In this document: one piece after another, positions 52,715 through 64,000 of the stretch
Layout of the letters: each line of letters starts with the position of its first letter
Numbering within the stretch: position 1 is the stretch's first letter
Source: Gammaproteobacteria bacterium
Lineage (GTDB): Bacteria > Pseudomonadota > Gammaproteobacteria > SZUA-229
Direction: 5' to 3'
DNA: 64,000 nucleotides
Assembly: GCA_026195255.1 (NCBI GenBank)
Contig: JAPHSS010000005.1
Location: 32,008-96,007 of the forward strand
The notes under the pieces: model-generated
Databases searched by the model: none
What the model saw: the letters and a program-made list of their open reading frames with translations, nothing else
What the model was told of the DNA's origin: nothing
Position numbers and translations under genes: made by a program

Positions 52715-53731
52715 CTACACCTGTGTTAACAGCACCCTACTACCATACTGTTGCCGATAAGACTCCATCGTCATCTCCATTTGTTTTTTAAATAATCGCC
52801 TAAAACTACTCTCATCTTTATAACCCACTTCATAAACAATTTTTGTTGAAGGTAACAGTGTAAGCTCTAACAAGTTACAGGCGCGGTTTATACGAATAGT
52901 TTGTAAATATTGCACTGGTGAACATTGCAGTGATTTTGAAAAACGTCGATTTAATTGTCGGTCACTTATACTTAACATATTAGAAAGATCATTGATATTT
53001 ATATCTTCATGGCTGTGTTTTTCTATATGCCGTTGTGCACGTAACACGAGTTCATCAGCGTGGTCGGTTGTCTCTACATTAGTTCTAAATGCTTTAGTTG
53101 AGGGTGCGTTTAAATGCATCATTAATAATTTTGCAGTGTCTACAGCAGTGCGGTGTCCGGCAAAACGCTCAACCAGATGCATAACCATGAGCTCACATGA
53201 CATGCTGCCACCTATAACACTAATAATATTGCCATAGTCCGCGACAGCATTATGTGTATCTATTTTTAAACCGGGAAATGAACGCCGATAAAAACTTTCA
53301 CTCTTCCAGTGCATAAGTGCAGGCAGGTTTTCCATAAGCCCCGCTTTAGCTAACAGAAACGAACCACTACAGATGCTGATGAGCAACCCTCCACGATCAT
53401 AATGCTGCTGAATAACAGGAATAACGGGTTCCGCATTAACAAGAAAACGTTCAACCTTTTCATAGTCAGTTAAAGACTCAAAAACGGAAGGAAGTATCCA
53501 TGCATCCGCTCGGCTATCGAGTTTCAGGTAGTCTTCAAGACTGTAATCAGCCTGTATAACCAGACCATTAGTTGGTGTCACCGGCTTTCCGTCGATGGAA
53601 ATCAGGTCCCATTCAAATAAGGGCTTATGATCTGCTTTCACCAGGGTGTAATTGGTGGCTATGAGTGTATCCAGAATGCTATGAATGCCGCTACCAAAAC
53701 AGCGATTCATAAGTAATATCGCGATTCTCAT
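52715..53731 (-). CDS. AraC-family transcriptional regulator with N-terminal DJ-1/PfpI (GATase1-like) domain
   Basis: C-terminal double HTH (AraC signature). N-terminal MRIAILL...ICSGSF. Confidence 0.8.
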   Translation of the reverse strand: MRIAILLMNRCFGSGIHSILDTLIATNYTLVKADHKPLFEWDLISIDGKPVTPTNGLVIQADYSLEDYLKLDSRADAWILPSVFESLTDYEKVERFLVNAEPVIPVIQQHYDRGGLLISICSGSFLLAKAGLMENLPALMHWKSESFYRRSFPGLKIDTHNAVADYGNIISVIGGSMSCELMVMHLVERFAGHRTAVDTAKLLMMHLNAPSTKAFRTNVETTDHADELVLRAQRHIEKHSHEDININDLSNMLSISDRQLNRRFSKSLQCSPVQYLQTIRINRACNLLELTLLPSTKIVYEVGYKDESSFRRLFKKQMEMTMESYRQQYGSRVLLTQV

Positions 53732-53828
53732 AATTATGTCCATTCTCACCAGTATTTTGTCAAATATGACACTTACCTGGTTTCAAATCAACCGCCATAC
53801 TTATTATCCCACTTCAGGAGCCTTTCAG

Positions 53829-54806
53829 ATGGATCATGAAACATTGCCAGTTGATAAAACCAGACAAACTAAAAACAGACTTTTCAATTCATCCGGGCAG
53901 GATAAACGTGTGGTTCCTTTCAGTTATCAAATGCTCGGCCATGCATTAAACATAATTTCATATATACGCAACGAATGGGCAGCAAGTATTATTAGTGACC
54001 TGTGGTTCACCGTGTTTAAGAGCAAAGCTAAACCCTGGACGATAAAATTCTGGCAAACTGCCGACGCTTGCGTAGAGCTGCAACTTAAAGATAAAGCCAT
54101 AACAGTTCATTTATGGGGTGAAGGCCCTCTGGTAGTTATGATGCATGGCTGGAGTGGTTCTGGTTCGCAGTTTCGCAAACACATACCCGGGCTGGTTAAT
54201 GCGGGTTATCAGGTTGCCTCATTCGACGCACCCGCGCATGGCCTTAACCCGGGCAAACAAAGCCATCTGCTTGAATTTTGTGACACGCTGCTTGCCATAG
54301 AACAACAGATAGGACAAGTTGATACGATAATGGCCCATTCATTTGGCGCTATGGCCGCGGTTGTTTCCACAATACTCGGTTTTTCACCTCGACAGATGAT
54401 ATTAATCGGCCCGCATCTGGATGCACATGAAATGCATCAGACCTACAGTGAGCTGTTAAACCTTAACCCCAGATTAACTCAACGATTTAGAGACAAGATT
54501 GAACAGAAGATGACCGACATTATTAACAGCAGTTTACTTAAGCTGGATAAAGATGTGTGGCACTTTTTATCACCCGCCAGCTTATTATCAAAAACAAAGT
54601 GCAAAGGTCTGTTAATCTATGATGTTGATGATGAAGAAATTCCACAAAGCCAGTTTAAAGAAGTAGAAAAATACTGGCAAGATTGCCAGACAATTGAAAC
54701 CAGTGGTTTAGGTCATCATAGAATATTAAAAGACAGAGAAGTAATTGAAAATGTACTGACATTTATGGGTGAAGCTACTTTAAAAACGCAATCAACTGTT
54801 GCTTGA
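53829..54806 (+). CDS. Alpha/beta hydrolase (divergent from the AraC regulator)
   Basis: HGWSGS oxyanion region and AHSFG nucleophile elbow. The start at 53829 is preceded by AGGAG. Confidence 0.75.
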   Translation: MDHETLPVDKTRQTKNRLFNSSGQDKRVVPFSYQMLGHALNIISYIRNEWAASIISDLWFTVFKSKAKPWTIKFWQTADACVELQLKDKAITVHLWGEGPLVVMMHGWSGSGSQFRKHIPGLVNAGYQVASFDAPAHGLNPGKQSHLLEFCDTLLAIEQQIGQVDTIMAHSFGAMAAVVSTILGFSPRQMILIGPHLDAHEMHQTYSELLNLNPRLTQRFRDKIEQKMTDIINSSLLKLDKDVWHFLSPASLLSKTKCKGLLIYDVDDEEIPQSQFKEVEKYWQDCQTIETSGLGHHRILKDREVIENVLTFMGEATLKTQSTVA

Positions 54807-55109
54807 TATACAGATTTCAAAAGCAGGCAACCCGGTGAATCTAAACTCAAGCAGTCATTTTATTTATTGTAGGTGAACAATTCATCAGAAATACCAGTTT
54901 TCAGTATTTTATAAAAAACAGGATGACAGAAAAATTAAGATATTTTTAGAGGCGGCAAACAGTCTCTATATTCGAACTGTATTTTACTGATTATAATAAT
55001 CGCACTTTTATCACTCTATATAATACCCAATATCATGCCATCCATAATTGATAAGGCATTTGAATTTTATAAATTTAAATAAAGTTAATCTATTTAGCTA
55101 CCAGCATCA

Positions 55110-55940
55110 TTACTTCTTTAAGAGTTTTTCTAACATACCTTCTATTTTAATTAAGCGCTGATCCATGTCTCGTGTTCTTTGCTCCATAATATGCACTTCA
55201 CCTGCTTCGCCTTCTCCATTTTCACGGTCATTTTTCTGATGTTCAGCCTGTAAGGTTTCTAATACTATTCCAATCATCATATTTAAAAAGACAAAAGCCA
55301 CAATAAAAATAAACGACAAATAAAATATCCAGCTAAATGGATAAACCTCCATTGTTTCATACATTACATCTGTCCAGTCTTCAAATGTAGCAATACGAAA
55401 TAATGTTAACATTGATATCGAAATATTATCCCAGAGAACCGGATTAATATTTGCAAAAAATATACTGCCCATCGCGGCATAGATATAGAAAAATATAAAC
55501 ATTAACAACGAGACATATCCCATTCGTGGAATTGCCGTGACAAATGCGGCCAGCAATACACGCAATTCAGGAATTATAGAAATAAGCCTCAATACACGAA
55601 ATATTCGTAACAGACGACCCAACATCGCCGTTTCTCCATGTTCAATAGGCAGAATACTGGCCACTACAATTATAAAATCAAATATATTCCATCCTTTACT
55701 AAAAAACCTGAATAGATTTTTTTCAGCAAACATACGTATGATAATTTCAAAAAGAAATATTCCAGTAACCGCAATATCTAAAACCTTTAACACATTAAAT
55801 GCTGCAGGTGAAATAGCGTAGGTTTTTGCACCAATCACTAAGGCAGAAACAAGAATAACCACAATCACGAATGTTTCGAATATTTTATTCTCGCGTAAAT
55901 GAACTAATCGATCTTGAAGGGCTTGAAAATCTAAAGACAT
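55110..55940 (-). CDS. Single-domain 6-TM voltage-gated ion channel (NaChBac/BacNav-type architecture)
   Basis: S4 motif LGRLLRIFRVLRLISI with Arg at every third position. Pore loop FRIATFEDWTDVMY. Confidence 0.75.
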   Translation of the reverse strand: MSLDFQALQDRLVHLRENKIFETFVIVVILVSALVIGAKTYAISPAAFNVLKVLDIAVTGIFLFEIIIRMFAEKNLFRFFSKGWNIFDFIIVVASILPIEHGETAMLGRLLRIFRVLRLISIIPELRVLLAAFVTAIPRMGYVSLLMFIFFYIYAAMGSIFFANINPVLWDNISISMLTLFRIATFEDWTDVMYETMEVYPFSWIFYLSFIFIVAFVFLNMMIGIVLETLQAEHQKNDRENGEGEAGEVHIMEQRTRDMDQRLIKIEGMLEKLLKK

Positions 55941-56111
55941 ATAAAACTACTACTTAACAGTAAAAACGCGGGCAGTATAACTGAAATCACAGTTATTAAA
56001 TATACTACCTGGCCTAGGTTTAGTTACATTCTATCGCTTGTGCCTGACATCAGGAAAACCACAAAGCAAAATACATAAATTATAGCGTGGAAAACTTAAA
56101 AAGTAATTTGA

Positions 56112-58313
56112 CTATTTATTCTTACGCGGCGGCAAACCCGTATGTTGGGTAAGCATCTTTTTACCTTTGCCTATATTAGAATGGGTTCGATGTTTATGCC
56201 CCGAGGCAGAGTTTTTTCTACGTGCTGCGGCGTAATCTTTATTAGTTGCTGGCTGATCTTTCGGTATCAACTGCCTGTCTGCATCACCAATTAAATCTGC
56301 ACGCCCCATTCGCTTTAGCGCCTCACGTAATAATGGCCAGTTTGCAGAATCGTGATAACGTAAAAAGGCCTTGTGTAATTTACGCTGTTCCGGGTCTTTA
56401 ACGCTCTCCACCTCTTCACTTTTATAACTAACACTACGTAACGGGTTTTTGCCAGTGTGGTACATTGCTGTTGCCGTCGCCATAGGTGACGGATAAAAAG
56501 CCTGCACCTGATCTGCCTTAAAACCATTACCTTTTAACCACAACGCCAGATTCATCATATCTTCATCGGTGGTACCCGGATGTGCCGCAATAAAATACGG
56601 AATAAGGTACTGATCTTTACCCGCTTGTCTGGAATATTTTTCGAACATCTTTTTAAACTTGTCGTAACTGCCCATGCCGGGTTTCATCATTTTCGACAAT
56701 GGCCCGTCTTCTGAATGTTCCGGTGCAATTTTTAAACAGCCACCCACATGGTGAGTAACCAGCTCTTTTACATATTCAGGGTCGCGTATCGCCAGATCAT
56801 AACGTAAGCCCGATGCAATCAAAACTTTCTTAACACCGGGTAAAGAACGCGCTTCACGATAAATTTGCGTAAGCGCAGAATGATCCGTCACTAAGTTATG
56901 ACAAATACCTGGGTAAACACAACTCGGTTTTCGGCAGGCCGCTTCAATTTCCCGTGTTTTACAGGCAATACGGTACATGTTGGCTGTAGGCCCACCAAGG
57001 TCAGAAATCACACCGGTAAAACCCGGCACCTTGTCTCGAATATCTTTAATTTCCTGCAGAACAGATTCTTTAGAACGGTTTTGAACAATACGACCTTCAT
57101 GCTCAGTAATAGAACAAAACGTACAGCCGCCAAAACAGCCGCGCATAATGTTTATTGAAAAACGAATCATCTCATAAGCTGGAATTTTTTTACCCCTGTA
57201 TTGCGGGTGCGGCACGCGTGCGAATGGCATCGCAAAAACGTAATCCATTTCATCCATGGTGAGTGGAATGGGTGGTGCGTTTAACCACACATCAACAGCT
57301 CCATGTTTCTGCACCAGTGCACGTGCATTACCCGGGTTAGTTTCAAGATGTAGAACACGATTGGCATGCGCATATAAAGCCGCATCATTACTGACTTTTT
57401 CAAATGCAGGCAAACGGATGACACTTTGAGCGCGATCTAGTTTTATTTTTTTGAGCTCAATTTCCTCACCCTGTTCATTGTATTGCGCACCATAAAAAGC
57501 ATTGTCACGGCGCTCACGCTCACAGGCGCTCATCTCCTGTGTATTAATATACGGATTTACAATTTTGTCTATTTTTCCTGGGCGGTCGATGCGCGACGAA
57601 TCAATTTCCATCCAGTCTTTGGGAGTATCATGACGCACAAATACCGTGCCGCGCACATCCGTAATCTGCTCAATTTTTTCACCCTGTGCAAGGCGATGGG
57701 CCACTTCAACAATCGCCCGTTCTGCATTGCCGTATAACAACATATCGGCAGTTGCATCCACCAGAATTGAGCGTCGCACTTTATCCTGCCAGTAATCATA
57801 ATGCGCGATACGACGTAATGATGCCTCAATGCCACCCAGAATCACCGGCACCTCTGTCCAGGCCTCCTTGCAACGTTGCGCATACACCAGTGAAGAACGA
57901 TCAGGCCGTTTACCGCCGATATCGCCGGCTGTATAAGCATCATCGTTACGAATTTTACGATCAGCCGTGTAACGGTTAATCATCGAATCCATATTACCCG
58001 CCGCAACACCAAAAAACAGATTAGGTTTGCCCAGCACTTCAAAAGCGTCTTTAGAGCCCCATTCAGGTTGTGAAATAATACCCACACGAAAGCCCTGTCC
58101 TTCAAGCAGGCGACCAATAATTGCCATGCCAAATGAAGGATGATCGACATAAGCATCACCGGTAACAATAATAATATCGCAGGAATCCCAGCCCAGTGCG
58201 TCCATCTCAGCACGGCTAGTTGGCAGGAACTCGGCCACGCCATAACACTCGGCCCAGTATTGTGGATAATCAAATAAGGCAGTTCTGGCGACGGGTACTG
58301 AAATAGCGGACAT
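56112..58313 (-). CDS. ygiQ: YgiQ-family radical SAM protein (UPF0313)
   Basis: Strong N- and C-terminal similarity to the YgiQ pattern, including CFGGCTFCS and a basic tail. Confidence 0.85.
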
Positions 58314-58711
58314 AGGGGGGTACTTATGTTTAAAACGCTATTATACCAAGTAATACACAATACAAGTGGCCTATATGAGCACCGGACATCAATTATTTCT
58401 AATATTCGTCCAGCTTATTCTCTGAGCTGATTTATTGCCTCGATTTTTAAAATTTAAGTATTCTCAGGTTTTTCTTTAAACTTCTTTGAACATGAAAAAC
58501 GACTAACCAGACTTACATTTAACTGGGCAAAATACTTATAAATTAGACCTTAAAGCAAACATCTTTAATAAATAATAATCAGCTAAGTTGGCAGACCAGT
58601 TATTTTCTATTATATTTTTACAAACAGAAAATCGATTAACATTAATTTTTTATAATGTTAATCCGTTAAATTATCAAGTCTGTTAATTTGTTCTTATAGT
58701 TAGCAAGTTCG

Positions 58712-59446
58712 TTATGGGGTAGTTGCCGGCAGCCATGAATTTGTTGTATGACAAAAACCACACTCTTCTGTAGTAATTAAATGATCCTGGGCTTTACCTG
58801 TTGCTATAACATTATTATGGCAACTTGAGCAGGCTCCGCTTACAGTTGAATGATCAAGAGTAACACCAAGCCATGTTAATGTAGTGAGATGACAATCATC
58901 ACACGCACTAAGAGTGGGTATGTGGTGAGCATGTTTGCCCGTGGCAATTACCCCGTTATGACATGACTCACAGGTGCCGATAACAGCAGTGTGATCAACC
59001 CTGGAAACACGATCGAAAGTAATTGTATTATGACAATCTTCACATATTGCTGTGCTCTGAATGTGTGATGCCGATTTACCAATTGCAACAACATTATTGT
59101 GACAGGTTTGACATGCACCCTGAACATCACTGTGGTCATATTTTGCACCCGTCCAGGTATAGTCTGAATGGCAATCATCACAAAAATTACTACTGTTAAC
59201 GTGTTGCGGGTGTTTGCCGGGAGCTCGACTACCATTATGGCATTGCGAGCATACAAGCGGTGTACCTTTAAACTGACTGTTAAAATGACAATCGGAGCAC
59301 TCAACAGTTTCGTGTTTACCTATTAACGGAAAACCTGTTTCAAAGTGATCGAATCCCCTTTTTGCGTCAGCAGCTTGAACCAGAAAACTTAGAGAGAAAC
59401 CAAGCAGTAGTAATATTGGCGTGAGGCTCAAGCGAATAGCTTTCAT
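58712..59446 (-). CDS. Secreted nonahaem c-type cytochrome (9 CXXCH motifs in 244 aa)
   Basis: Signal peptide, then nine CXXCH motifs spaced ~20 aa apart. It carries the same CXXCHNNVIA(T/I)GK module as the giant cytochrome. Confidence 0.8.
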   Translation of the reverse strand: MKAIRLSLTPILLLLGFSLSFLVQAADAKRGFDHFETGFPLIGKHETVECSDCHFNSQFKGTPLVCSQCHNGSRAPGKHPQHVNSSNFCDDCHSDYTWTGAKYDHSDVQGACQTCHNNVVAIGKSASHIQSTAICEDCHNTITFDRVSRVDHTAVIGTCESCHNGVIATGKHAHHIPTLSACDDCHLTTLTWLGVTLDHSTVSGACSSCHNNVIATGKAQDHLITTEECGFCHTTNSWLPATTP

Positions 59447-59625
59447 AAATATATGCTCAATTTCTTATTATGCAGATTAGTTAGTTTAGCGTTTAATACT
59501 TAAAGCTTTCAAACTTTTGTACTATAACTGTCGTCGTAATGTCGATCCCATCACGTACTAACTGTAACTGTTGATAGTACGTTTGAGACAGCCGTCAGTT
59601 TTTCACAGCAGAAGCTTCATTCAAT

Positions 59626-60150
59626 TTAATTTTTTTGAGACGTCAGATTTATATCAAACACCTTGCCTATTACATCTATAGCTATCGGGCTATCCCAATT
59701 GTATGATCCGCGAACTTTTTCCAGCACACGACCATTAGCGTCGACAAAAACTGTCAGCGGAATAGTATTGGCACCCAGCATGTTTTCCAGAAACAGTTTG
59801 CTGTCGATAAAATTTTCAAAGGTAATTTTACTCTGTTTAATAAAAGCCATCGCCTTAACACGATAGTCGTCCGTGGAAATACCAATCAGGTTGAACTCTT
59901 TACCGTTATATCGTTGTGCAAGCCGCTGCAGAGAACCGATCTCATCCCGACAGGGGCCACACCAACTGGCCCAGATGTTAATGATCAGTGGTTTGCCTTT
60001 AAAATCAGAAAGCTTTTTTGATTTGCCATTAAGCCCATCCATAATCGCTTCGCGCAGATATTCACCACTCTCGACTTCACCGGGTGTAGCAGCAAACGCA
60101 ACTGTGGATAGCGTTGATATTATAAAAAATGTCAGAATAAATATTCGCAT
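59626..60150 (-). CDS. TlpA/ResA-like periplasmic thiol:disulfide oxidoreductase
   Basis: Signal peptide. WASWCGPC active site. Start set at the internal Met (MRIFILTFF). Confidence 0.75.
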   Translation of the reverse strand: MRIFILTFFIISTLSTVAFAATPGEVESGEYLREAIMDGLNGKSKKLSDFKGKPLIINIWASWCGPCRDEIGSLQRLAQRYNGKEFNLIGISTDDYRVKAMAFIKQSKITFENFIDSKLFLENMLGANTIPLTVFVDANGRVLEKVRGSYNWDSPIAIDVIGKVFDINLTSQKN

Positions 60151-60505
60151 GCAAGTATTACCTGTTTGTAAAAAACATATTTCTTTAACGCCGCAAGGCA
60201 ACTAAAACCTAAACTTGAATCGCTACAGTTCAGTCGATTTTGCCCTGCACGCTAATTAAGGTGCTGCAGAATTTATGGTAAATAGCTGTTCAAATCTCTA
60301 ATTAATATGATTTTTTGTAGAGGAGTCGACAAAAACAGCGCTAAAAGTGGGATAATATTCCCATAACTTCAAGCACAGCGCAATTATTGACCTTATTTAT
60401 TAGGTCATAGGGCGTGTGACTAAACTTAAAAAAATTATATGAAAGACAAACAGAAAGCGTCACATCTACTGTTTCACTTTCAATAGCATATTTGGTACTT
60501 AGATA

Positions 60506-63500
60506 ATGGACGTCAAGAATAGACTAAAAGCACTAACCACCTACTTATTAACGTGTTTGATAACTGTCATTGTCGTCGGTTGTGGCAGCGGATCAGGGGA
60601 TCAACCTAAAGACGAAACAATAAGCCCATCACCTTTTTCTTCAACTTATAATGAGCTAACCGCCGTACCTGGCCCCATGTCTGGCATTAGAGTGGGCGGA
60701 GTGGCGACATTAGATGGCAGCCAGTCATCTACCACATCAACCGAACCGTTGAGTTATAACTGGTCTTTTTCCAATATACCGGATGGCAGTAAAGCCGTAT
60801 TACAGGGCGCCACAACAGCAACCCCCAGTTTTACCGCCGATGTTGCGGGTGTTTATATGGTGCAACTGCTGGTTAGCGCAGAGGGCGTAACCAGCCCACG
60901 CGCCGTAGCGATGGTGGTGGTTACCAATGAAAACGAAAGTTTAATCGGCCCGTTTCCTGGCCATCAGGGCATATCATCTAATTGCGGGAGTTGTCACGAC
61001 GGCTTTACCCGAAATAGTAAAGGCGATTTTCTACCTCAAAAAGTACCAGACCACCCTGCTAGCAGTAATATGTGCCAGTCATGCCATACTCCACAGGGTT
61101 ACAACATCATCCCCTATGTTGATCATCAGGAAGTCTTTGGGAGTTGCAGCGGATGCCATGATGGTGTCAGAGCAATTGGTAAATCTGAATTTCATTCAGC
61201 AACCAATGCCGAATGCAGCGACTGTCATAATACCAGCCATTTTCTGGAATTAGGGCCGGACGGCAGCTTTGATCATTCGAATATAACCAGATCATGCTCT
61301 GGCTGTCACAACAATATAATTGCTATAGGTAAAACACCTGGCCCATCCGACACACCTCCCGGCAGTCACCCGGTAACTAACTCTGAATGTGGCAGCTGTC
61401 ATACTACGAGTAGTTTTCTGAGCGCCTACCCCGACCATACCGCCCCCGCTGTAACAGATTTCACCTGTGATTCCTGTCATATTGCAAACGGCTCAGGCTC
61501 AGCAAGAGGTCAATCCACCGGCCATCCAATATCAAATGCCGATTGTAATAGCTGTCATAACATTCAGAGTTTCAAAATGCCCGGTGGTATATTCAATCAC
61601 GCCTTGCTGGATGTAACAGTCCAGTCGTGTGAGTCTTGCCACAACGATAATACGAGCATTAATGCACCCGCCAAATCGTCTGCGACGCCTGCCCACCCAG
61701 CGACTGACAGCGATTGTGGAGCGTGCCATAGCACAGAGCAATTTAGCCCCGTATTTGCTATCGACCACACTGACCCGGCGGTACTAGCCGCCAGTTGCGA
61801 CTCCTGTCACGGTGTTAGCGCTAGCGGCAAACCGGCTAGCACTGCCGTTTACGCACATATGCCAACCACCGAAGACTGTAAGGTTTGTCATACTCCCGGT
61901 ACCTTTAGAACGGGCACCTTTAGTCACAGCGGCCCGTCTTACGTAGGTAGCTGTAACTCCTGTCACGACAATGTAATTGGTGTGGGTAAGTTACCAAATC
62001 ACATACCAACCAGCCCTGATAATCAGAATTGTGCCGATTGTCATGTCACAACTAGCTTTGCTGATGTCACGTTTGATCACAACTCAACAGATACCAGCAA
62101 CTGCCTGGCCTGTCACGACGGAAATATCAGTCAGGGTCAATCACCAGATCATGTAAACACCGCCGAGAACTGCTCCTCCTGCCACACGACCAGTACTTTT
62201 ACTACATTCGCGGGCACTTTTATTCATAATCCAGCGATAGTCAGCGGCGATTGCGCATCATGCCATAACACCGGTATTGCTCTGCCTAAAAAACTCAATC
62301 ACATTCCAGCACAGGCTGAATGCAGTGAGTGTCACGATGACACCACCGTTACTGGCGGTTTTGCAATATCTACATTTTTTGGAAATGTGCATCCCGGCAT
62401 TACTAATGGATGTGGAGGCTGTCACAGTGGTCAGTTCACTAGCATATCTACCAATCTCTACGGAAAACCCGTTAACCACTTACCAACGACCCAGGATTGT
62501 GACGTTTGTCATACCAGCGCTTCGTTTACAGCTCCTACACAATTTGCCCATGCGGGTATAAGCGGTAACTGTACCTCGTGTCACAATGGAGATTTTGTAA
62601 CAACTGGTGCCAGAGCAAAGTCAGCAACTCACCCAGTGACCACCGCAGACTGTGGAGCCTGCCATTCAATTAACAACAATTTCAACGATGGCACATTTGA
62701 TCATACTGGAATTGTAAGTGATTGCGCATCCTGTCACGGTGAAACCACCACGACGACTCCAGTAGGCCCCAAAAAGAATGTAGGTCACCTCCCAACCACG
62801 CAGGACTGCAGCTCCTGTCACACGGTCGGCACCTTTAATCCTGCAGTGTTTGATCATACGGGAATCATAGATAACTGTGTCTCGTGCCACGGTGATAGCG
62901 CAACAACAGCGGTAACCAAGAAGAATATCGGTCATGTCGCGACTTCGCAGGATTGCTCGGTGTGTCATAACACCAGCACTTTTGCTGGTGCCGCATTTGA
63001 CCATACGGGCATTACTAACAACTGTGCATCCTGCCACGACGGGGCAACTGCCAGAGGTAAAACACCACCGCCAAATCATCTGCCAACTACTCAGGATTGT
63101 TACGTGTGCCACCAGACCACCGGTTTTATACCGGGAACGTTTGATCACACTGGTATCTTAGATAACTGCAGGTCCTGTCATGATGGCGCAGTTGCCGTAG
63201 GTAAAACAGATACTCACGTACAAACAAACCAGGATTGTAGCGTTTGTCATAACACAAGCACCCCGCTTACTTTTATCGGCGGCGTGTTCGACCATACGGG
63301 TATAGTGAACAACTGTGAATCCTGTCATGACGGCGGTACGGCGATTGGTAAAGATGCAAAAACCAACCCAGCGCACATTCCTACCTCGCTGGATTGTAGC
63401 TCCTGTCATACGACGGCAACATTCCAGGGAGGCACATGGGTTCATGATTCCACGACGGCTAATAACTGTAATAGCTGTCACTTTGATGGCAGCGTCGCGA

Positions 63501-63850
63501 AACGCTACAAGTTATCTGGGCATTTAAATACAAACGAACAATGCGACGTTTGCCATACCACTAATGCCTGGGCACCGACCGACTTCACGCACAGCTCTCA
63601 AGGCAACTACCCGGGTGACCATAGAAGAGATCCGGGCTGTACAGGTTGTCACAAAGGCTCACTAAGCTCTGGCATTAACAGTGACAATTATCCTAATCAA
63701 TTAAGATACGCACCATTTTGTGCTGGCTGTCATGCAAATGATTTCGATTCAAAAGATGATCACATTGGTGGTAAAAACGGCACCATCGAACAGAATAAAG
63801 ATTGTGCGGGCAGTGGATGTCATCGTGTAAGAGACAGTGCCTTTGATTGA
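60506..63850 (+). CDS. Giant multihaem c-type cytochrome lipoprotein (~36 CXXCH + 1 CX4CH; N-terminal Ig/PKD-like domain)
   Basis: Lipobox VVGC after the signal peptide. 36 CXXCH motifs counted in the translation. Built from paired-CXXCH repeats. Confidence 0.85.
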   Translation: MDVKNRLKALTTYLLTCLITVIVVGCGSGSGDQPKDETISPSPFSSTYNELTAVPGPMSGIRVGGVATLDGSQSSTTSTEPLSYNWSFSNIPDGSKAVLQGATTATPSFTADVAGVYMVQLLVSAEGVTSPRAVAMVVVTNENESLIGPFPGHQGISSNCGSCHDGFTRNSKGDFLPQKVPDHPASSNMCQSCHTPQGYNIIPYVDHQEVFGSCSGCHDGVRAIGKSEFHSATNAECSDCHNTSHFLELGPDGSFDHSNITRSCSGCHNNIIAIGKTPGPSDTPPGSHPVTNSECGSCHTTSSFLSAYPDHTAPAVTDFTCDSCHIANGSGSARGQSTGHPISNADCNSCHNIQSFKMPGGIFNHALLDVTVQSCESCHNDNTSINAPAKSSATPAHPATDSDCGACHSTEQFSPVFAIDHTDPAVLAASCDSCHGVSASGKPASTAVYAHMPTTEDCKVCHTPGTFRTGTFSHSGPSYVGSCNSCHDNVIGVGKLPNHIPTSPDNQNCADCHVTTSFADVTFDHNSTDTSNCLACHDGNISQGQSPDHVNTAENCSSCHTTSTFTTFAGTFIHNPAIVSGDCASCHNTGIALPKKLNHIPAQAECSECHDDTTVTGGFAISTFFGNVHPGITNGCGGCHSGQFTSISTNLYGKPVNHLPTTQDCDVCHTSASFTAPTQFAHAGISGNCTSCHNGDFVTTGARAKSATHPVTTADCGACHSINNNFNDGTFDHTGIVSDCASCHGETTTTTPVGPKKNVGHLPTTQDCSSCHTVGTFNPAVFDHTGIIDNCVSCHGDSATTAVTKKNIGHVATSQDCSVCHNTSTFAGAAFDHTGITNNCASCHDGATARGKTPPPNHLPTTQDCYVCHQTTGFIPGTFDHTGILDNCRSCHDGAVAVGKTDTHVQTNQDCSVCHNTSTPLTFIGGVFDHTGIVNNCESCHDGGTAIGKDAKTNPAHIPTSLDCSSCHTTATFQGGTWVHDSTTANNCNSCHFDGSVAKRYKLSGHLNTNEQCDVCHTTNAWAPTDFTHSSQGNYPGDHRRDPGCTGCHKGSLSSGINSDNYPNQLRYAPFCAGCHANDFDSKDDHIGGKNGTIEQNKDCAGSGCHRVRDSAFD
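62495..63600 (+). repeat. Tandem near-identical ~140-nt (~47-aa) coding repeats inside the giant cytochrome gene
   Basis: Repeated units of the form DC.(S/V)CH.T.TF....FDHTGI..NC.SCH.G....GK....H.PT. Confidence 0.6.
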
Positions 63851-63909
63851 TTAAGCTAATATCAGCCCTCAATTAATTCGTTGCTTTGCGCCCTGCTCTT
63901 CATCAACTC

Positions 63910-63933
63910 GTTCCCACGGAATTTCGTGGGAAC
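63910..63933. repeat. Perfect 24-nt palindrome GTTCCCACGGAATTTCGTGGGAAC downstream of the giant cytochrome gene
   Basis: Read directly. No flanking T-run on either strand. Confidence 0.4.
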
Positions 63934-64000
63934 GCATAAACAACTTCTCGTGGTGATTCCAGTTAATCAAGTTCAAAAGCAAAAGCACTTTCCGCTAATG

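What the first reader, a model, noticed from the sequence alone, without database searches (positions are those of the whole stretch)
58712..63850. Divergent locus: nonahaem cytochrome + TlpA-like reductase <-> giant cytochrome
A secreted 9-haem cytochrome (58712-59446, minus) and a TlpA/ResA-type thioredoxin-like protein (59626-60150, minus) lie head-to-head with the giant cytochrome (plus). The intergenic region between them is 355 nt (60151-60505). Both cytochromes share the same CXXCH-NNVIA-GK module, so they are paralogous building blocks. TlpA/ResA-type proteins reduce apocytochrome cysteines before haem attachment (established knowledge), which fits a dedicated maturation helper. No beta-barrel porin partner lies within the window on the minus side; the next minus-strand gene is ygiQ, 398 nt downstream. 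Any porin would have to lie beyond 64000 or elsewhere. By inference this is an accessory multihaem electron-transfer module of undescribed function.
Basis: inference. Interest (0 to 1): 0.7.

Follow-up and report, generated by a model that had tools for sequence, protein, structure and literature searches.

The report
Orphaned multihaem cytochrome wire cassette
Three genes at the end of the window encode a small 9-haem cytochrome, a 37-haem outer-membrane lipoprotein cytochrome and a thioredoxin-like helper. They travel together as a conserved cassette derived from the predicted but untested "PCC3" electron conduit of sulfur- and iron-oxidising bacteria, and here they sit without that conduit's porin, periplasmic cytochrome or inner-membrane protein.

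Summary
At 58712-59446(-) lies a secreted 244-aa cytochrome with 9 CXXCH. At 59626-60150(-) lies a periplasmic TlpA/ResA-like thioredoxin (WCGPC). At 60506-63850(+) lies a 1114-aa lipoprotein with a PKD-like domain, 36 CXXCH and one invariant CX4CH.

The 9-haem protein is 75-77% identical to the short "extracellular" cytochrome of PCC3 clusters (He et al. 2017). Those clusters read inner-membrane protein / 21-haem cytochrome / extracellular cytochrome / ~680-aa outer-membrane protein. In four lineages a homologue of the giant cytochrome lies within 10 kb of such clusters. None of the other PCC3 genes is in this 64-kb window.

The trio keeps its internal layout in five different genomic neighbourhoods, down to 73% identity for the giant protein. 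All three genes are under purifying selection (dN/dS 0.07-0.16).

The giant belongs to an unnamed, very uniform family of 35-36 CXXCH proteins; the anchoring cysteine is invariant in the 54 aligned. Conserved histidines fit bis-His ligation of nearly every haem, so it is a wire and not an enzyme.

The thioredoxin subfamily recurs beside PCC3 and giant genes in three separate layouts, once next to a CycH-type biogenesis domain protein. It also occurs alone elsewhere.

Function remains inferred: an accessory extracellular or periplasmic electron-transfer module. It is a new variant of a known kind.

The parts
58712..59446 (-). Secreted 9-haem c-type cytochrome (244 aa). It is the orthologue type of the short 'extracellular MHC' of PCC3 clusters and carries the conserved N-terminal FDHFxTGFPL motif.
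   Evidence: It has 9 CXXCH motifs. All nine motifs and nine further His are conserved in at least 90% of 38 homologues, which fits bis-His ligation. It is 77% identical to the PCC3-embedded gene of L001 and 75-76% identical to those of L111, L117 and L119. dN/dS is 0.07-0.16.
59447..59625 (.). 179-nt spacer between the thioredoxin gene and the 9-haem gene. Whether the two genes are co-transcribed is not settled.
   Evidence: There is only a weak promoter-like match on the minus strand at 59512-59483 and no terminator-like site in the spacer. Spacer length varies among relatives: 172 nt in L024 and 401 nt in L029.
59626..60150 (-). Periplasmic TlpA/ResA-like thioredoxin-fold protein (174 aa). 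It has a cleavable signal peptide and a WCGPC active site (residues 63-67).
   Evidence: Pfam gives AhpC-TSA at 68.6 bits and Redoxin at 68.6 bits, both above their cut-offs. NCBIfam gives TlpA at 86 bits (cut-off 230), ResA at 80 (170) and DsbE at 55 (123), all below cut-off. The closest solved structures are 3kcm, TlpA 1jfu and ResA. The start codon is supported by conservation in relatives. It is 73-85% identical across the trio loci and 47% identical to the thioredoxin upstream of the giant gene in L026.
60151..60505 (.). Divergent promoter region with blocks conserved across the five trio loci, including the palindrome TGGGATAATATTCCCA (60348-60363).
   Evidence: Mean column identity is 81% among three loci and 66% among five, although synonymous sites between the three closest loci are already heavily diverged (dS 0.56-0.89). 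The palindrome occurs once in the 64-kb window. It is kept, with one spacer base varying, in L024, L029 and L114, and has one arm mismatch in L115. One promoter-like match lies on the minus strand at 60463-60434.
60506..63850 (+). Giant c-type cytochrome lipoprotein (1114 aa). In order it has a signal and lipobox (Cys26), a Gly/Ser linker, a PKD/Ig-like beta-sandwich (~residues 50-150), then an array of 36 CXXCH plus a C-terminal CX4CH (residues 160-1106).
   Evidence: Pfam gives Cytochrome_C7 at 164.7 bits in 10 stretches, Paired_CXXCH_1, Mtrc-MtrF_II-IV_dom at 66 bits and K319L-like_PKD at 28.7 bits. NCBIfam TIGR04257 nanowire_3heme scores 65 bits against a cut-off of 40. Cys26, all 37 haem motifs and 36 extra His are conserved in 54 homologues, and no Met is conserved. 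Only the N-terminal beta-sandwich is confidently modelled, at pLDDT 78-94. dN/dS is 0.08-0.13.
63910..63933 (+). Stem-loop GTTCCCACG-GAATTT-CGTGGGAAC, 60 nt after the stop codon of the giant gene. It is a probable transcript-end hairpin.
   Evidence: The 65-nt stretch around it folds to -21.3 kcal/mol in total, and that fold includes a second, outer stem. No T tract follows, so the terminator scan did not report it. It is not conserved in the relatives examined.

Best explanation
The locus is a three-gene cassette that supplies the distal, haem-wire part of a PCC3-type electron-transfer pathway across the cell envelope in a sulfur-oxidising gammaproteobacterium.

**Shown by the sequence and comparisons**

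- The small protein is a Sec-exported 9-haem cytochrome with conserved histidines that fit bis-His ligation. It is of the same orthologous type as the 'extracellular' cytochrome that sits between the 21-haem periplasmic cytochrome and the outer-membrane protein in PCC3 clusters.
- The large protein is a lipid-anchored 37-haem cytochrome with a PKD-like domain. Its conserved histidines fit bis-His ligation of at least 36 of the 37 haems. Its haem repeats and its non-repeat C-terminal cap are homologous to those of long PCC3 extracellular cytochromes.
- The third protein is a periplasmic CXXC reductase of the TlpA/ResA superfamily.

**Inferred**

- The thioredoxin-like protein keeps the 92 haem-binding cysteines of the two apocytochromes reduced for haem attachment.
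- The 9-haem protein acts as the adaptor that contacts a trans-outer-membrane conduit or another periplasmic donor.
- The outer-membrane-anchored giant carries electrons over roughly 30 nm. This assumes 37 haems at about 0.8 nm per haem, a spacing recalled from MtrA and OmcS structures and not checked here.
- The 9-haem protein and the giant together mimic a single long PCC3 extracellular cytochrome that has been split in two.
- The direction of flow is not determined. It could be export of electrons from sulfur oxidation to minerals or partner cells, or uptake.
- The porin, the 21-haem cytochrome and the di-haem-b inner-membrane protein that this scheme needs are not in this window. They must be encoded elsewhere in the genome if the cassette really works through PCC3.
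For: **Relatives carry genuine PCC3 clusters.**
- Relatives carry the order IMP / 21-haem / 9-to-67-haem / ~680-aa OMP.
- Their IMPs have the published PCC3 signature of two WX3HX13H motifs plus SGXXG.
- Their OMPs have a signal peptide and end in YRWDF/Y.

**The window's 9-haem protein belongs with the PCC3-embedded copies.**
- It is 75-77% identical to them.
- Trio-type copies form a clade sister to them, with 150/200 NJ bootstraps.

**The giant gene associates with PCC3 clusters that have a short extracellular cytochrome.**
- Giant homologues lie within 10 kb of PCC3 in L001, L117, L119, L027 and L026.
- They appear only where the PCC3 extracellular cytochrome is short: 5 of 8 short loci against 0 of 9 long loci, Fisher p=0.009. 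The sample is limited to +-10 kb and is not corrected for phylogeny.

**Long PCC3 extracellular cytochromes look like a fusion of the two window proteins.**
- They start like the window's 9-haem protein (50-54% identity).
- They align with the giant through to its last residues. L010 and L006 also share its CAGCHAND... cap motif; only L010 ends in the same ...CHRV tail.

**The trio behaves as a unit under selection.**
- Its order is kept in five different neighbourhoods: window, L024, L029, L114 and L115.
- dN/dS is 0.07-0.16, and the divergent promoter region is conserved.

**The giant family is uniform.**
- Of the 120 best hits, 116 have 35-36 CXXCH.
- 100 of the 117 hits longer than 1000 aa match a lipobox pattern, and the anchoring Cys is invariant in the 54 aligned.

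**Haem ligation fits a wire.** 36 extra His are conserved for 37 motifs in the giant, and 9 for 9 in the small protein.

**The thioredoxin recurs beside these genes.**
- It is next to a CycH Ig-domain protein and the giant gene in L026.
- It is next to the FeS-FAD gene of PCC3 in L035 and L043.
Against: - **No core PCC3 genes nearby.** No IMP, 21-haem cytochrome, OMP, FeS-FAD or ankyrin gene lies in the 64-kb window (tblastn) or in the +-10 kb read around the other trio loci. None of the 120 best porin homologues has a longest-contig length equal to that of a trio-bearing contig (33-187 kb). That check is indirect, because matching contig lengths is a weak proxy for contig identity.
- **Whole genomes not examined.** Whether trio-bearing genomes have a PCC3 core at all is untested.
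- **PCC3 itself is unverified.** It has no experimentally verified function, so any mechanism that rests on it is second-hand inference.
- **Localisation unknown.** Surface or periplasmic orientation of the lipoprotein cannot be read from the sequence.
- **Thioredoxin not exclusive.** Six of its closest metagenomic homologues have no cytochrome gene in the readable part of their contigs.
- **No usable structures.** The structure models were too poor to test any docking idea.
Confidence: 0.55

Rival explanations
1. The trio is a porin-independent periplasmic electron buffer or bridge. The giant lipoprotein faces the periplasm from the outer membrane and stores or relays electrons from sulfur oxidation, acting as a 37-haem capacitor or a periplasm-spanning rod. 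The 9-haem protein is its soluble shuttle. Nothing crosses the outer membrane.
For: - No porin gene accompanies the trio in any of its five contexts.
- In L029 the trio lies next to soxX/Y/Z/A.
- The haem number is nearly fixed at 35-36 CXXCH across more than 100 diverged homologues, whereas PCC3 extracellular cytochromes range from 7 to 67 haems here. This could reflect a fixed distance to span, which is inference.
- By the Lol sorting rule (established knowledge), a Gly or Ser after the lipidated Cys sends a lipoprotein to the inner leaflet of the outer membrane by default.
Against: - PKD/Ig-like domains are typical of surface or secreted proteins (established knowledge).
- The closest homologues of both cytochromes are the components of PCC3 that were predicted to be extracellular.
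- Giant genes co-locate with porin-containing clusters in several lineages.
- MtrC and OmcA are lipoproteins that still reach the cell surface (established knowledge).
Confidence: 0.25
2. The thioredoxin-like gene is a general periplasmic thiol reductase, serving oxidative-stress repair, copper-protein maturation or general Ccm support. It merely happens to lie beside the cytochromes.
For: - Six of the closest metagenomic homologues (L031 71%, L032 65%, L037 61%, L034 56%, L045 55%, L042 53%) have no multihaem gene in the readable part of their contigs, from under 1 kb to 10 kb per side.
- The protein scores below every NCBIfam equivalog cut-off, so it is not a recognised CcmG, ResA or TlpA.
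- L001, L027 and L117 have the giant gene without an adjacent thioredoxin.
Against: - It is retained in the trio in five contexts with a conserved shared promoter region.
- It has become linked to PCC3 or giant genes independently in two further layouts (L026; L035/L043). In L026 it is directly beside a protein with two CycH Ig-like biogenesis domains, E=1.3e-32.
Confidence: 0.25
3. The cytochromes form a catalytic multihaem enzyme complex, such as a nitrite, sulfite, hydroxylamine or tetrathionate oxidoreductase, and not a wire.
For: Only the general fact that many multihaem proteins are enzymes. One haem of the giant, near residues 556-583, lacks a distal His conserved at the 90% level.
Against: - Neither protein has a CXXCK or other atypical catalytic motif.
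- 36 conserved distal His for 37 motifs in the giant, and 9 for 9 in the small protein, point to saturated six-coordinate haems.
- NrfH, HmcA and TmcA models score far below their cut-offs.
- No catalytic-subunit gene is nearby.
- The sequence is a regular ~50-residue di-haem repeat.
Confidence: 0.04
4. The locus is a decaying remnant of a PCC3 cluster left after deletion of the core genes.
For: The core genes are absent locally. The genes immediately flanking the trio differ between the window and its closest relative L024 even though the wider neighbourhood is shared.
Against: - The ORFs are intact, dN/dS is 0.07-0.16, and every haem motif is kept.
- The same arrangement is preserved in five contexts at 73-89% identity for the giant protein.
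- No pseudogene fragments of core genes were found in the spacers.
Confidence: 0.03

Closest known systems
PCC3 porin-cytochrome gene cluster (He, Barco, Emerson & Roden 2017, PMC5566968; Gallionellaceae survey PMC10734462)
   Same: The 9-haem protein is 75-77% identical to the gene in the 'extracellular MHC' position of gammaproteobacterial PCC3 clusters. The giant shares repeat type and C-terminal cap with long PCC3 extracellular cytochromes and often lies beside such clusters. Like PCC3 cytochromes, both are very haem-dense (about 26-30 residues per haem) and built from repeats.
   Different: The window has no IMP, no 21-haem periplasmic cytochrome and no porin. The giant is a lipoprotein with a PKD-like domain and a nearly fixed 37 haems. 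It is a separate gene from the one in the PCC3 extracellular position. A thioredoxin gene is part of the unit. The passages of the PCC3 papers read here do not mention the giant lipoprotein family, the thioredoxin or the trio.
MtrC/OmcA outer-membrane decahaem lipoproteins of the Shewanella MtrCAB system
   Same: The giant is a lipoprotein multihaem cytochrome with conserved histidines that fit bis-His ligation, and local matches to the MtrC/MtrF domain II/IV model (66 bits, cut-off 30). Functionally, it looks like a terminal cytochrome that may work with a smaller partner and a porin-sheathed periplasmic cytochrome.
   Different: It has 37 haems, not 10. It has no split-barrel flavin-binding domains. 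TIGR03507 scores 117 bits against a cut-off of 209. There is no adjacent MtrA/MtrB pair.
GSU1996-type 'nanowire' cytochromes built from c7-type domains (NCBIfam TIGR04257)
   Same: Both are a long single polypeptide of tandem small multihaem units. The giant passes the TIGR04257 domain cut-off (65 bits against 40) and matches Pfam Cytochrome_C7 in 10 stretches.
   Different: The repeat here is a ~50-residue di-haem 'paired CXXCH' unit and not a triheme c7 domain throughout. The protein is lipid-anchored, carries a PKD-like domain and is three times longer.
TlpA / ResA / CcmG periplasmic thiol-disulfide oxidoreductases
   Same: It has a thioredoxin fold with a CXXC site, is exported, and finds TlpA (1jfu, E=9e-20) and ResA as its best named structural relatives. 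Its genomic link to c-type cytochromes mirrors ResA and CcmG.
   Different: The active site is WCGPC, as in classical thioredoxin (recalled, not tested here). It appears to be soluble after signal cleavage, not membrane-anchored. It scores below all equivalog cut-offs. The subfamily also occurs away from cytochrome genes.

Membership tests
PCC3 gene cluster (He et al. 2017) | A gene for an 'extracellular' multihaem cytochrome with many CXXCH repeats | tested here: met
   The window's 9-haem protein is 75-77% identical over its full length to the gene in that position in L001, L111, L117 and L119.
PCC3 gene cluster (He et al. 2017) | A periplasmic multihaem cytochrome (median 21 haems) in the same cluster | tested here: not met
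   tblastn with the L001 21-haem protein finds only weak repeat-level matches (22-26% identity) inside the two window cytochromes. The window has no third multihaem ORF.
PCC3 gene cluster (He et al. 2017) | An adjacent outer-membrane beta-barrel (porin-like) protein | tested here: not met
   tblastn finds no match to the L001 OMP in 64 kb at E<=1e-3 and none in the spacers even at E<=10 beyond noise. The relatives L024, L029, L114 and L115 also lack it within +-10 kb.
PCC3 gene cluster (He et al. 2017) | A ~300-aa inner-membrane protein with two WX3HX13H motifs and SGXXG | tested here: not met
   It is absent from the window. The signature is present in the IMPs of L001, L009, L026, L027 and L043, which confirms that those relatives are genuine PCC3 clusters.
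OmcA/MtrC decahaem family (TIGR03507) | Whole-protein score above the curated cut-off, with a ten-haem, four-domain architecture | tested here: not met
   The score is 117.1 bits against a cut-off of 209.3. The protein has 37 haem motifs, and the only non-haem domain is PKD-like.
OmcA/MtrC decahaem family (TIGR03507) | Lipoprotein signal peptide | tested here: met
   The lipobox is VVGC with Cys26, which is invariant in 54 homologues. A lipobox pattern is found in 100 of the 117 hits longer than 1000 aa.
c7-type triheme 'nanowire' domain proteins (TIGR04257) | Domain model score above cut-off | tested here: met
   The giant scores 65.1 bits against a cut-off of 40, in 2 stretches. The 9-haem protein scores 24.4 bits, below the cut-off.
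TlpA (NF047696) / ResA (NF002854) / DsbE-CcmG (TIGR00385) | Score above the curated family cut-off | tested here: not met
   The scores are 86 against 230, 80.4 against 170 and 55.3 against 123. The protein belongs to the superfamily only: Pfam Redoxin and AhpC-TSA score above their cut-offs.
TlpA / ResA / CcmG | Exported thioredoxin fold with a CXXC active site and a cis-Pro loop | tested here: met
   The signal peptide, WCGPC (residues 63-67) and IPLT (130-133) are invariant in the four-sequence alignment. The protein aligns with the TlpA and ResA structures over residues ~35-160.
TlpA / ResA / CcmG | Reduces apocytochrome c (or another defined periplasmic substrate) | not testable with these tools
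   Only synteny bears on this. It favours the role in the trio loci, L026, L035 and L043. It is neutral or against in L031, L032, L034, L037, L042 and L045.

The most novel reading that the evidence does not exclude
The trio is a self-sufficient two-protein wire of 46 haems that sulfur-oxidising Gammaproteobacteria use without any dedicated porin. It would be a split, lipid-anchored version of the PCC3 extracellular cytochrome. Its nearly invariant 37-haem length would act as a molecular ruler of about 30 nm, either spanning the periplasm or projecting a fixed distance from the cell to exchange electrons with minerals, sheaths or partner cells. A cytochrome-linked thioredoxin would be needed to mature it.
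Probability: 0.2. Interest if true: 0.75.

Novelty: new variant of a known kind. Interest (0 to 1): 0.5.

Why it matters
Sulfur-oxidising Gammaproteobacteria dominate many marine sediments and animal symbioses. How they dispose of or acquire electrons when oxygen and nitrate are out of reach is an open question.

The giant lipoprotein cytochrome belongs to a large family: 580 database hits, of which the 120 best are 50-89% identical to it and nearly all are full length. I found no name for it and no description in the library searched. It is linked by synteny and by shared domains to PCC3, a conduit predicted in 2017 that still has no experimental test.

The cassette offers three things to follow up:
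- A compact three-gene unit that could be expressed heterologously.
- A Rosetta-stone argument that the 9-haem and 37-haem proteins work together.
- A fixed haem count that implies a defined geometry.

If the module proves to work without a porin, it would change how extracellular or periplasmic electron transfer is looked for in genomes, because current screens key on porin-cytochrome pairs.

Tried and rejected
- **Structure prediction.** AlphaFold2 with family alignments gave unusable models. The 9-haem protein had mean pLDDT 49.7 and the giant 42.7, with only the N-terminal beta-sandwich confident. No fold search was run, because matches to such models would be meaningless.
- **Sequence search of the PDB.** It found only marginal hits to an MtrA-like decahaem chain, at E=1e-4.
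- **Exact look-up of the giant protein.** It found nothing. No locus fully identical to the window turned up in the genome or metagenome scans either. The window's organism therefore could not be named, and its full genome could not be checked for a PCC3 core.
- **Looking for the PCC3 core of trio-bearing organisms.** Contexts of the five porin homologues looked up (P0123-P0126 and L001 itself) all showed standard PCC3 clusters with their own 9-haem gene. None could be tied to a trio-bearing genome.
- **Pseudogene remnants.** A sensitive tblastn of the four spacers gave only noise. One 25-residue match to the FeS-FAD protein (E=0.004 in a 1-kb database) is on the wrong strand and in the wrong position, and I treat it as chance.
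- **RNA features.** Rfam and tRNA scans of the whole window were empty.
- **Literature.** Searches for a 35- or 36-haem cytochrome family, and for multihaem cytochromes in Thiodiazotropha, Beggiatoaceae or Thiotrichaceae, gave nothing relevant. The supplementary PCC3 tables of He et al. are held only as images.
- **Long thioredoxin ORF.** The version starting at TTG 60201 was rejected in favour of ATG 60150.

Full report
**1. What is in the sequence**

- **9-haem protein.** The minus-strand ORF 58712-59446 encodes 244 residues with nine CXXCH motifs spaced 16-24 residues apart, 18 Cys and 21 His. It starts with a typical Sec signal ending VQA|ADA.
- **Thioredoxin-like protein.** The minus-strand ORF 59626-60150 encodes a 174-residue thioredoxin-fold protein with a signal peptide and a WCGPC site.
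  - It scores above the Pfam cut-offs for AhpC-TSA and Redoxin. It is best matched by TlpA, ResA and DsbE models, but below their curated cut-offs.
  - Its nearest solved relatives are 3kcm, TlpA (1jfu) and ResA.
  - The longer TTG-initiated ORF in the mechanical list is not supported. The ATG and the signal peptide are conserved in relatives, and the upstream stretch is not.
- **Giant protein.** The plus-strand ORF 60506-63850 encodes 1114 residues with 36 CXXCH, one C-terminal CX4CH, 76 Cys and 75 His.
  - It has a lipobox (VVGC, Cys26) followed by a Gly/Ser linker.
  - A PKD/Ig-like domain covers residues 57-137. This is the only part that AlphaFold2 models with confidence.
- **Rest of the window.** These are the only multihaem ORFs in the 64-kb window. 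The rest of the window holds ordinary chromosomal genes, including efflux, sensor kinase, helicase, OmpA, MscS, AraC-type regulator and YgiQ-family radical-SAM genes. There are no ccm, dsbD or secretion genes.

**2. The genes are functional and move as a unit**

- Against the two closest loci (L024 and L029) the three genes have dN/dS of 0.07-0.16, with dS of 0.56-0.89.
- The same order, 9-haem <- thioredoxin <-> giant, is found in five different neighbourhoods:
  - the window (AraC, hydrolase, ion channel and ygiQ on one side);
  - L024 (same wider region, but eCIS_core and DUF6988 genes next to the trio, and Sel1 and a TonB receptor after the giant);
  - L029 (tol-pal and queCE on one side, soxXYZA on the other);
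  - L114 (tol-pal/queCE and recBCD);
  - L115 (LysR, ADH and TetR on one side, a che operon on the other).

  Giant-protein identity falls to 73% across this set.
- The divergent spacer is conserved in blocks. They include a palindrome TGGGATAATATTCCCA at 60348-60363 that is unique in the window.

**3. What the proteins are related to**

A scan of species-representative genomes with the 9-haem protein found 23 loci. They are mostly uncultured sulfur-oxidising Gammaproteobacteria: Thiotrichaceae, Candidatus Thiodiazotropha, Chromatiales and Ectothiorhodospiraceae.

In nearly all of them the homologue lies in the order ~280-300-aa protein / 21-haem cytochrome / homologue with 7-67 haems / ~680-aa protein. 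A 4Fe-4S plus FAD oxidoreductase gene, usually with an ankyrin/Sel1 gene, faces the other way in most loci.

This is the 'PCC3' cluster defined bioinformatically by He et al. 2017: inner-membrane protein, periplasmic MHC with a median of 21 haems, extracellular MHC, and porin. I checked the published signature:
- The ~300-aa proteins of L001, L009, L026, L027 and L043 each have exactly two WX3HX13H motifs and one SGXXG.
- The ~680-aa proteins have signal peptides and end in an aromatic residue, YRWDF/Y.

The window's 9-haem protein is 75-77% identical to the PCC3-embedded copies of L001, L111, L117 and L119. In a neighbour-joining tree the five trio-type copies group together in 150 of 200 bootstraps, as sister to those PCC3 copies.

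**4. The giant cytochrome family**

- The database search returned 580 hits. The 120 best are 50-89% identical, and almost all cover the full length.
- Of those 120, 116 have 35 or 36 CXXCH. Of the 117 longer than 1000 aa, 100 match a lipobox pattern, usually followed by Gly or Ser. The C-terminal ...EQNKNCAGSGCHRV motif is widespread.
- In a 54-sequence alignment Cys26, all 37 haem motifs and 36 further His are conserved, and no Met is conserved. This fits bis-His ligation of essentially every haem. The same holds for the small protein, with 9 motifs and 9 extra conserved His.
- Source annotations give only 'hypothetical protein', 'cytochrome c3 family protein' or a cytochrome c7 domain label. 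I found no description of the family in the literature library.

**5. Links between the giant, the 9-haem protein and PCC3**

- Giant homologues lie just downstream of PCC3 in L027/L028, and after an intervening ribonucleotide-reductase pair in L001, L117 and L119.
- In the 5.47-Mb genome behind L026 the order is OMP <- 9-haem <- 21-haem <- IMP <-> FeS-FAD -> ankyrin -> CycH-Ig protein -> thioredoxin -> giant.
- Within the flanks available, a separate giant gene appears only where the PCC3 extracellular cytochrome is short (7-9 haems): 5 of 8 such loci. It never appears where that cytochrome is long (15 or more haems): 0 of 9 loci. Fisher p=0.009, with no phylogenetic correction and only +-10 kb examined.
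- Long PCC3 extracellular cytochromes begin like the window's 9-haem protein (50-54% identity, including the FDHFxTGFPL start). They align with the giant through to its last residues. L010 and L006 also share its CAGCHAND... cap motif, and only L010 ends in the same ...CHRV tail.

By the Rosetta-stone argument, the 9-haem protein and the giant probably act together and jointly correspond to one long extracellular PCC3 cytochrome. This is inference, not demonstration.

**6. The thioredoxin**

*For a cytochrome link.* The thioredoxin is part of the trio in all five contexts. A 47%-identical homologue sits directly before the giant gene in L026, preceded by a protein with two CycH Ig-like cytochrome-biogenesis domains (E=1.3e-32). 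Homologues of 53-56% identity follow the FeS-FAD gene of PCC3 clusters in L035 and L043.

*Against exclusivity.* A metagenome scan anchored on the thioredoxin found a distinct subfamily of at least 41% identity, clearly separated from generic TlpA-like hits at 27-39%. In six of its members no cytochrome gene lies in the readable part of the contig, from under 1 kb to 10 kb per side. L001, L027 and L117 have giant genes without it.

The maturation-helper idea is therefore reasonable and supported by synteny. 'Dedicated' is not shown.

**7. Mechanism**

*Shown.*
- One exported and one lipid-anchored cytochrome, with conserved histidines that fit bis-His ligation of 9 of 9 and 36 of 37 haems.
- An exported CXXC reductase.
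- Co-inheritance of the three genes, purifying selection, and homology to PCC3 components.

*From established knowledge.* Bis-His multihaem arrays transfer electrons and do not catalyse reactions. CcmG/ResA-type proteins re-reduce apocytochrome cysteines. Lipoprotein cytochromes such as MtrC and OmcA can be surface-exposed.

*Inferred.*
- The thioredoxin services the 92 haem-binding cysteines.
- The 9-haem protein is the adaptor to a trans-outer-membrane conduit.
- The giant is a wire of about 30 nm. This figure uses a spacing of about 0.8 nm per haem, recalled from MtrA and OmcS structures and not checked here.

The weak point is that the conduit itself (IMP, 21-haem cytochrome, OMP) is absent from the window and from the flanks of every trio locus.

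Either the core is elsewhere in these genomes or the trio works without it. The second possibility is the periplasmic buffer or bridge rival. It is helped by the fixed haem number and by the sox neighbourhood in L029. I put about 0.55 on the PCC3-linked reading and 0.25 on the porin-independent one. Catalytic-enzyme and decaying-remnant readings are close to excluded.

**8. Comparison with what is known, and novelty**

- PCC3 itself is known only from genomics. Papers up to 2025 still call it functionally unverified, with modest and unresponsive expression in Sideroxydans.
- The window fails three of the four defining features of a PCC3 cluster, so it should not be filed as one. It is a PCC3-derived or PCC3-associated cassette.
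- The giant passes the c7-type 'nanowire' domain model and matches the MtrC domain II/IV model locally, but it fails the OmcA/MtrC family test.
- I found no prior description of the 37-haem lipoprotein family, of its pairing with the short PCC3 cytochrome, or of the trio cassette.

I rate it a new variant of a known kind, with moderate interest. The real value lies in the PCC3 connection, the split-wire argument and the strikingly fixed haem count.

Noticed in passing
L001:5639-6976(-), L026:5112-6440(+), L035:8648-9961(+), L043:3499-4806(+) and equivalents in about 25 other PCC3 loci: A ~440-aa protein with an N-terminal membrane helix, a 4Fe-4S dicluster domain and a Pyr_redox_3 FAD/NAD(P) domain lies next to the PCC3 cluster in 27 of the 32 loci tabulated; most of the five without it are cut contigs. 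In most loci it faces away from the inner-membrane-protein gene and has an ankyrin/Sel1 gene beside it (21 of 32). He et al. likened the inner-membrane protein to the di-haem-b domain of NOX/ferric reductases. The pair therefore looks like a split NAD(P)H-linked transmembrane electron module. It is not part of the four-gene PCC3 definition in the passages I read.
   Followed up: partly
window 60348-60363: The palindrome TGGGATAATATTCCCA lies in the divergent promoter region. It occurs once in 64 kb. It is kept, with one spacer base varying, in L024, L029 and L114, and has one arm mismatch in L115. Other conserved blocks lie at 60291-60331 and 60414-60423. It is a likely operator for an unidentified regulator.
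   Followed up: partly
window 63910-63933: A perfect 9-bp stem, GTTCCCACG/CGTGGGAAC, lies 60 nt after the stop codon of the giant gene. Its arms contain the same GTGGGA/TCCCAC hexamers as the promoter palindrome. It is not conserved in relatives and has no T tract.
   Followed up: partly
L029:13988-16119(-); L115:14663-23417(+): In one relative the trio abuts the soxX/Y/Z/A sulfur-oxidation genes. In another it abuts a complete chemotaxis (che) operon. The flanks of the cassette differ in every context seen.
   Followed up: no
L035:2082-5377(+); L043:5502-8742(-): PCC3 clusters that carry the thioredoxin after the FeS-FAD gene also contain a DUF6502 protein, a DUF5666 protein and an unassigned ~270-aa protein. 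These lie between the two halves of the cluster.
   Followed up: no
window 56001-64000 versus 1-56000: The last 8 kb (ygiQ plus the trio) has 40-48% G+C, against 32-39% for the rest of the window. This may simply reflect the Cys/His/Gly/Ala-rich cytochromes and a conserved radical-SAM gene, and need not mean foreign origin.
   Followed up: no
window 52715-58313 versus L024:3920-7948: The window and its closest relative share the MscS, OmpA, AraC and hydrolase neighbourhood. They differ in the genes immediately next to the trio: an ion-channel gene plus ygiQ here, and a 175-aa ORF plus eCIS_core plus DUF6988 there. This marks an insertion/deletion hot spot at the cassette border.
   Followed up: no
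P0241-P0360 (homologues of the 9-haem protein): The PCC3 extracellular-cytochrome family falls mainly into length classes of about 205-215 aa (7 haems in L027, the one such protein counted), about 244-260 aa (9 haems) and about 380-400 aa. This fits growth by whole di-haem repeat units.
   Followed up: no
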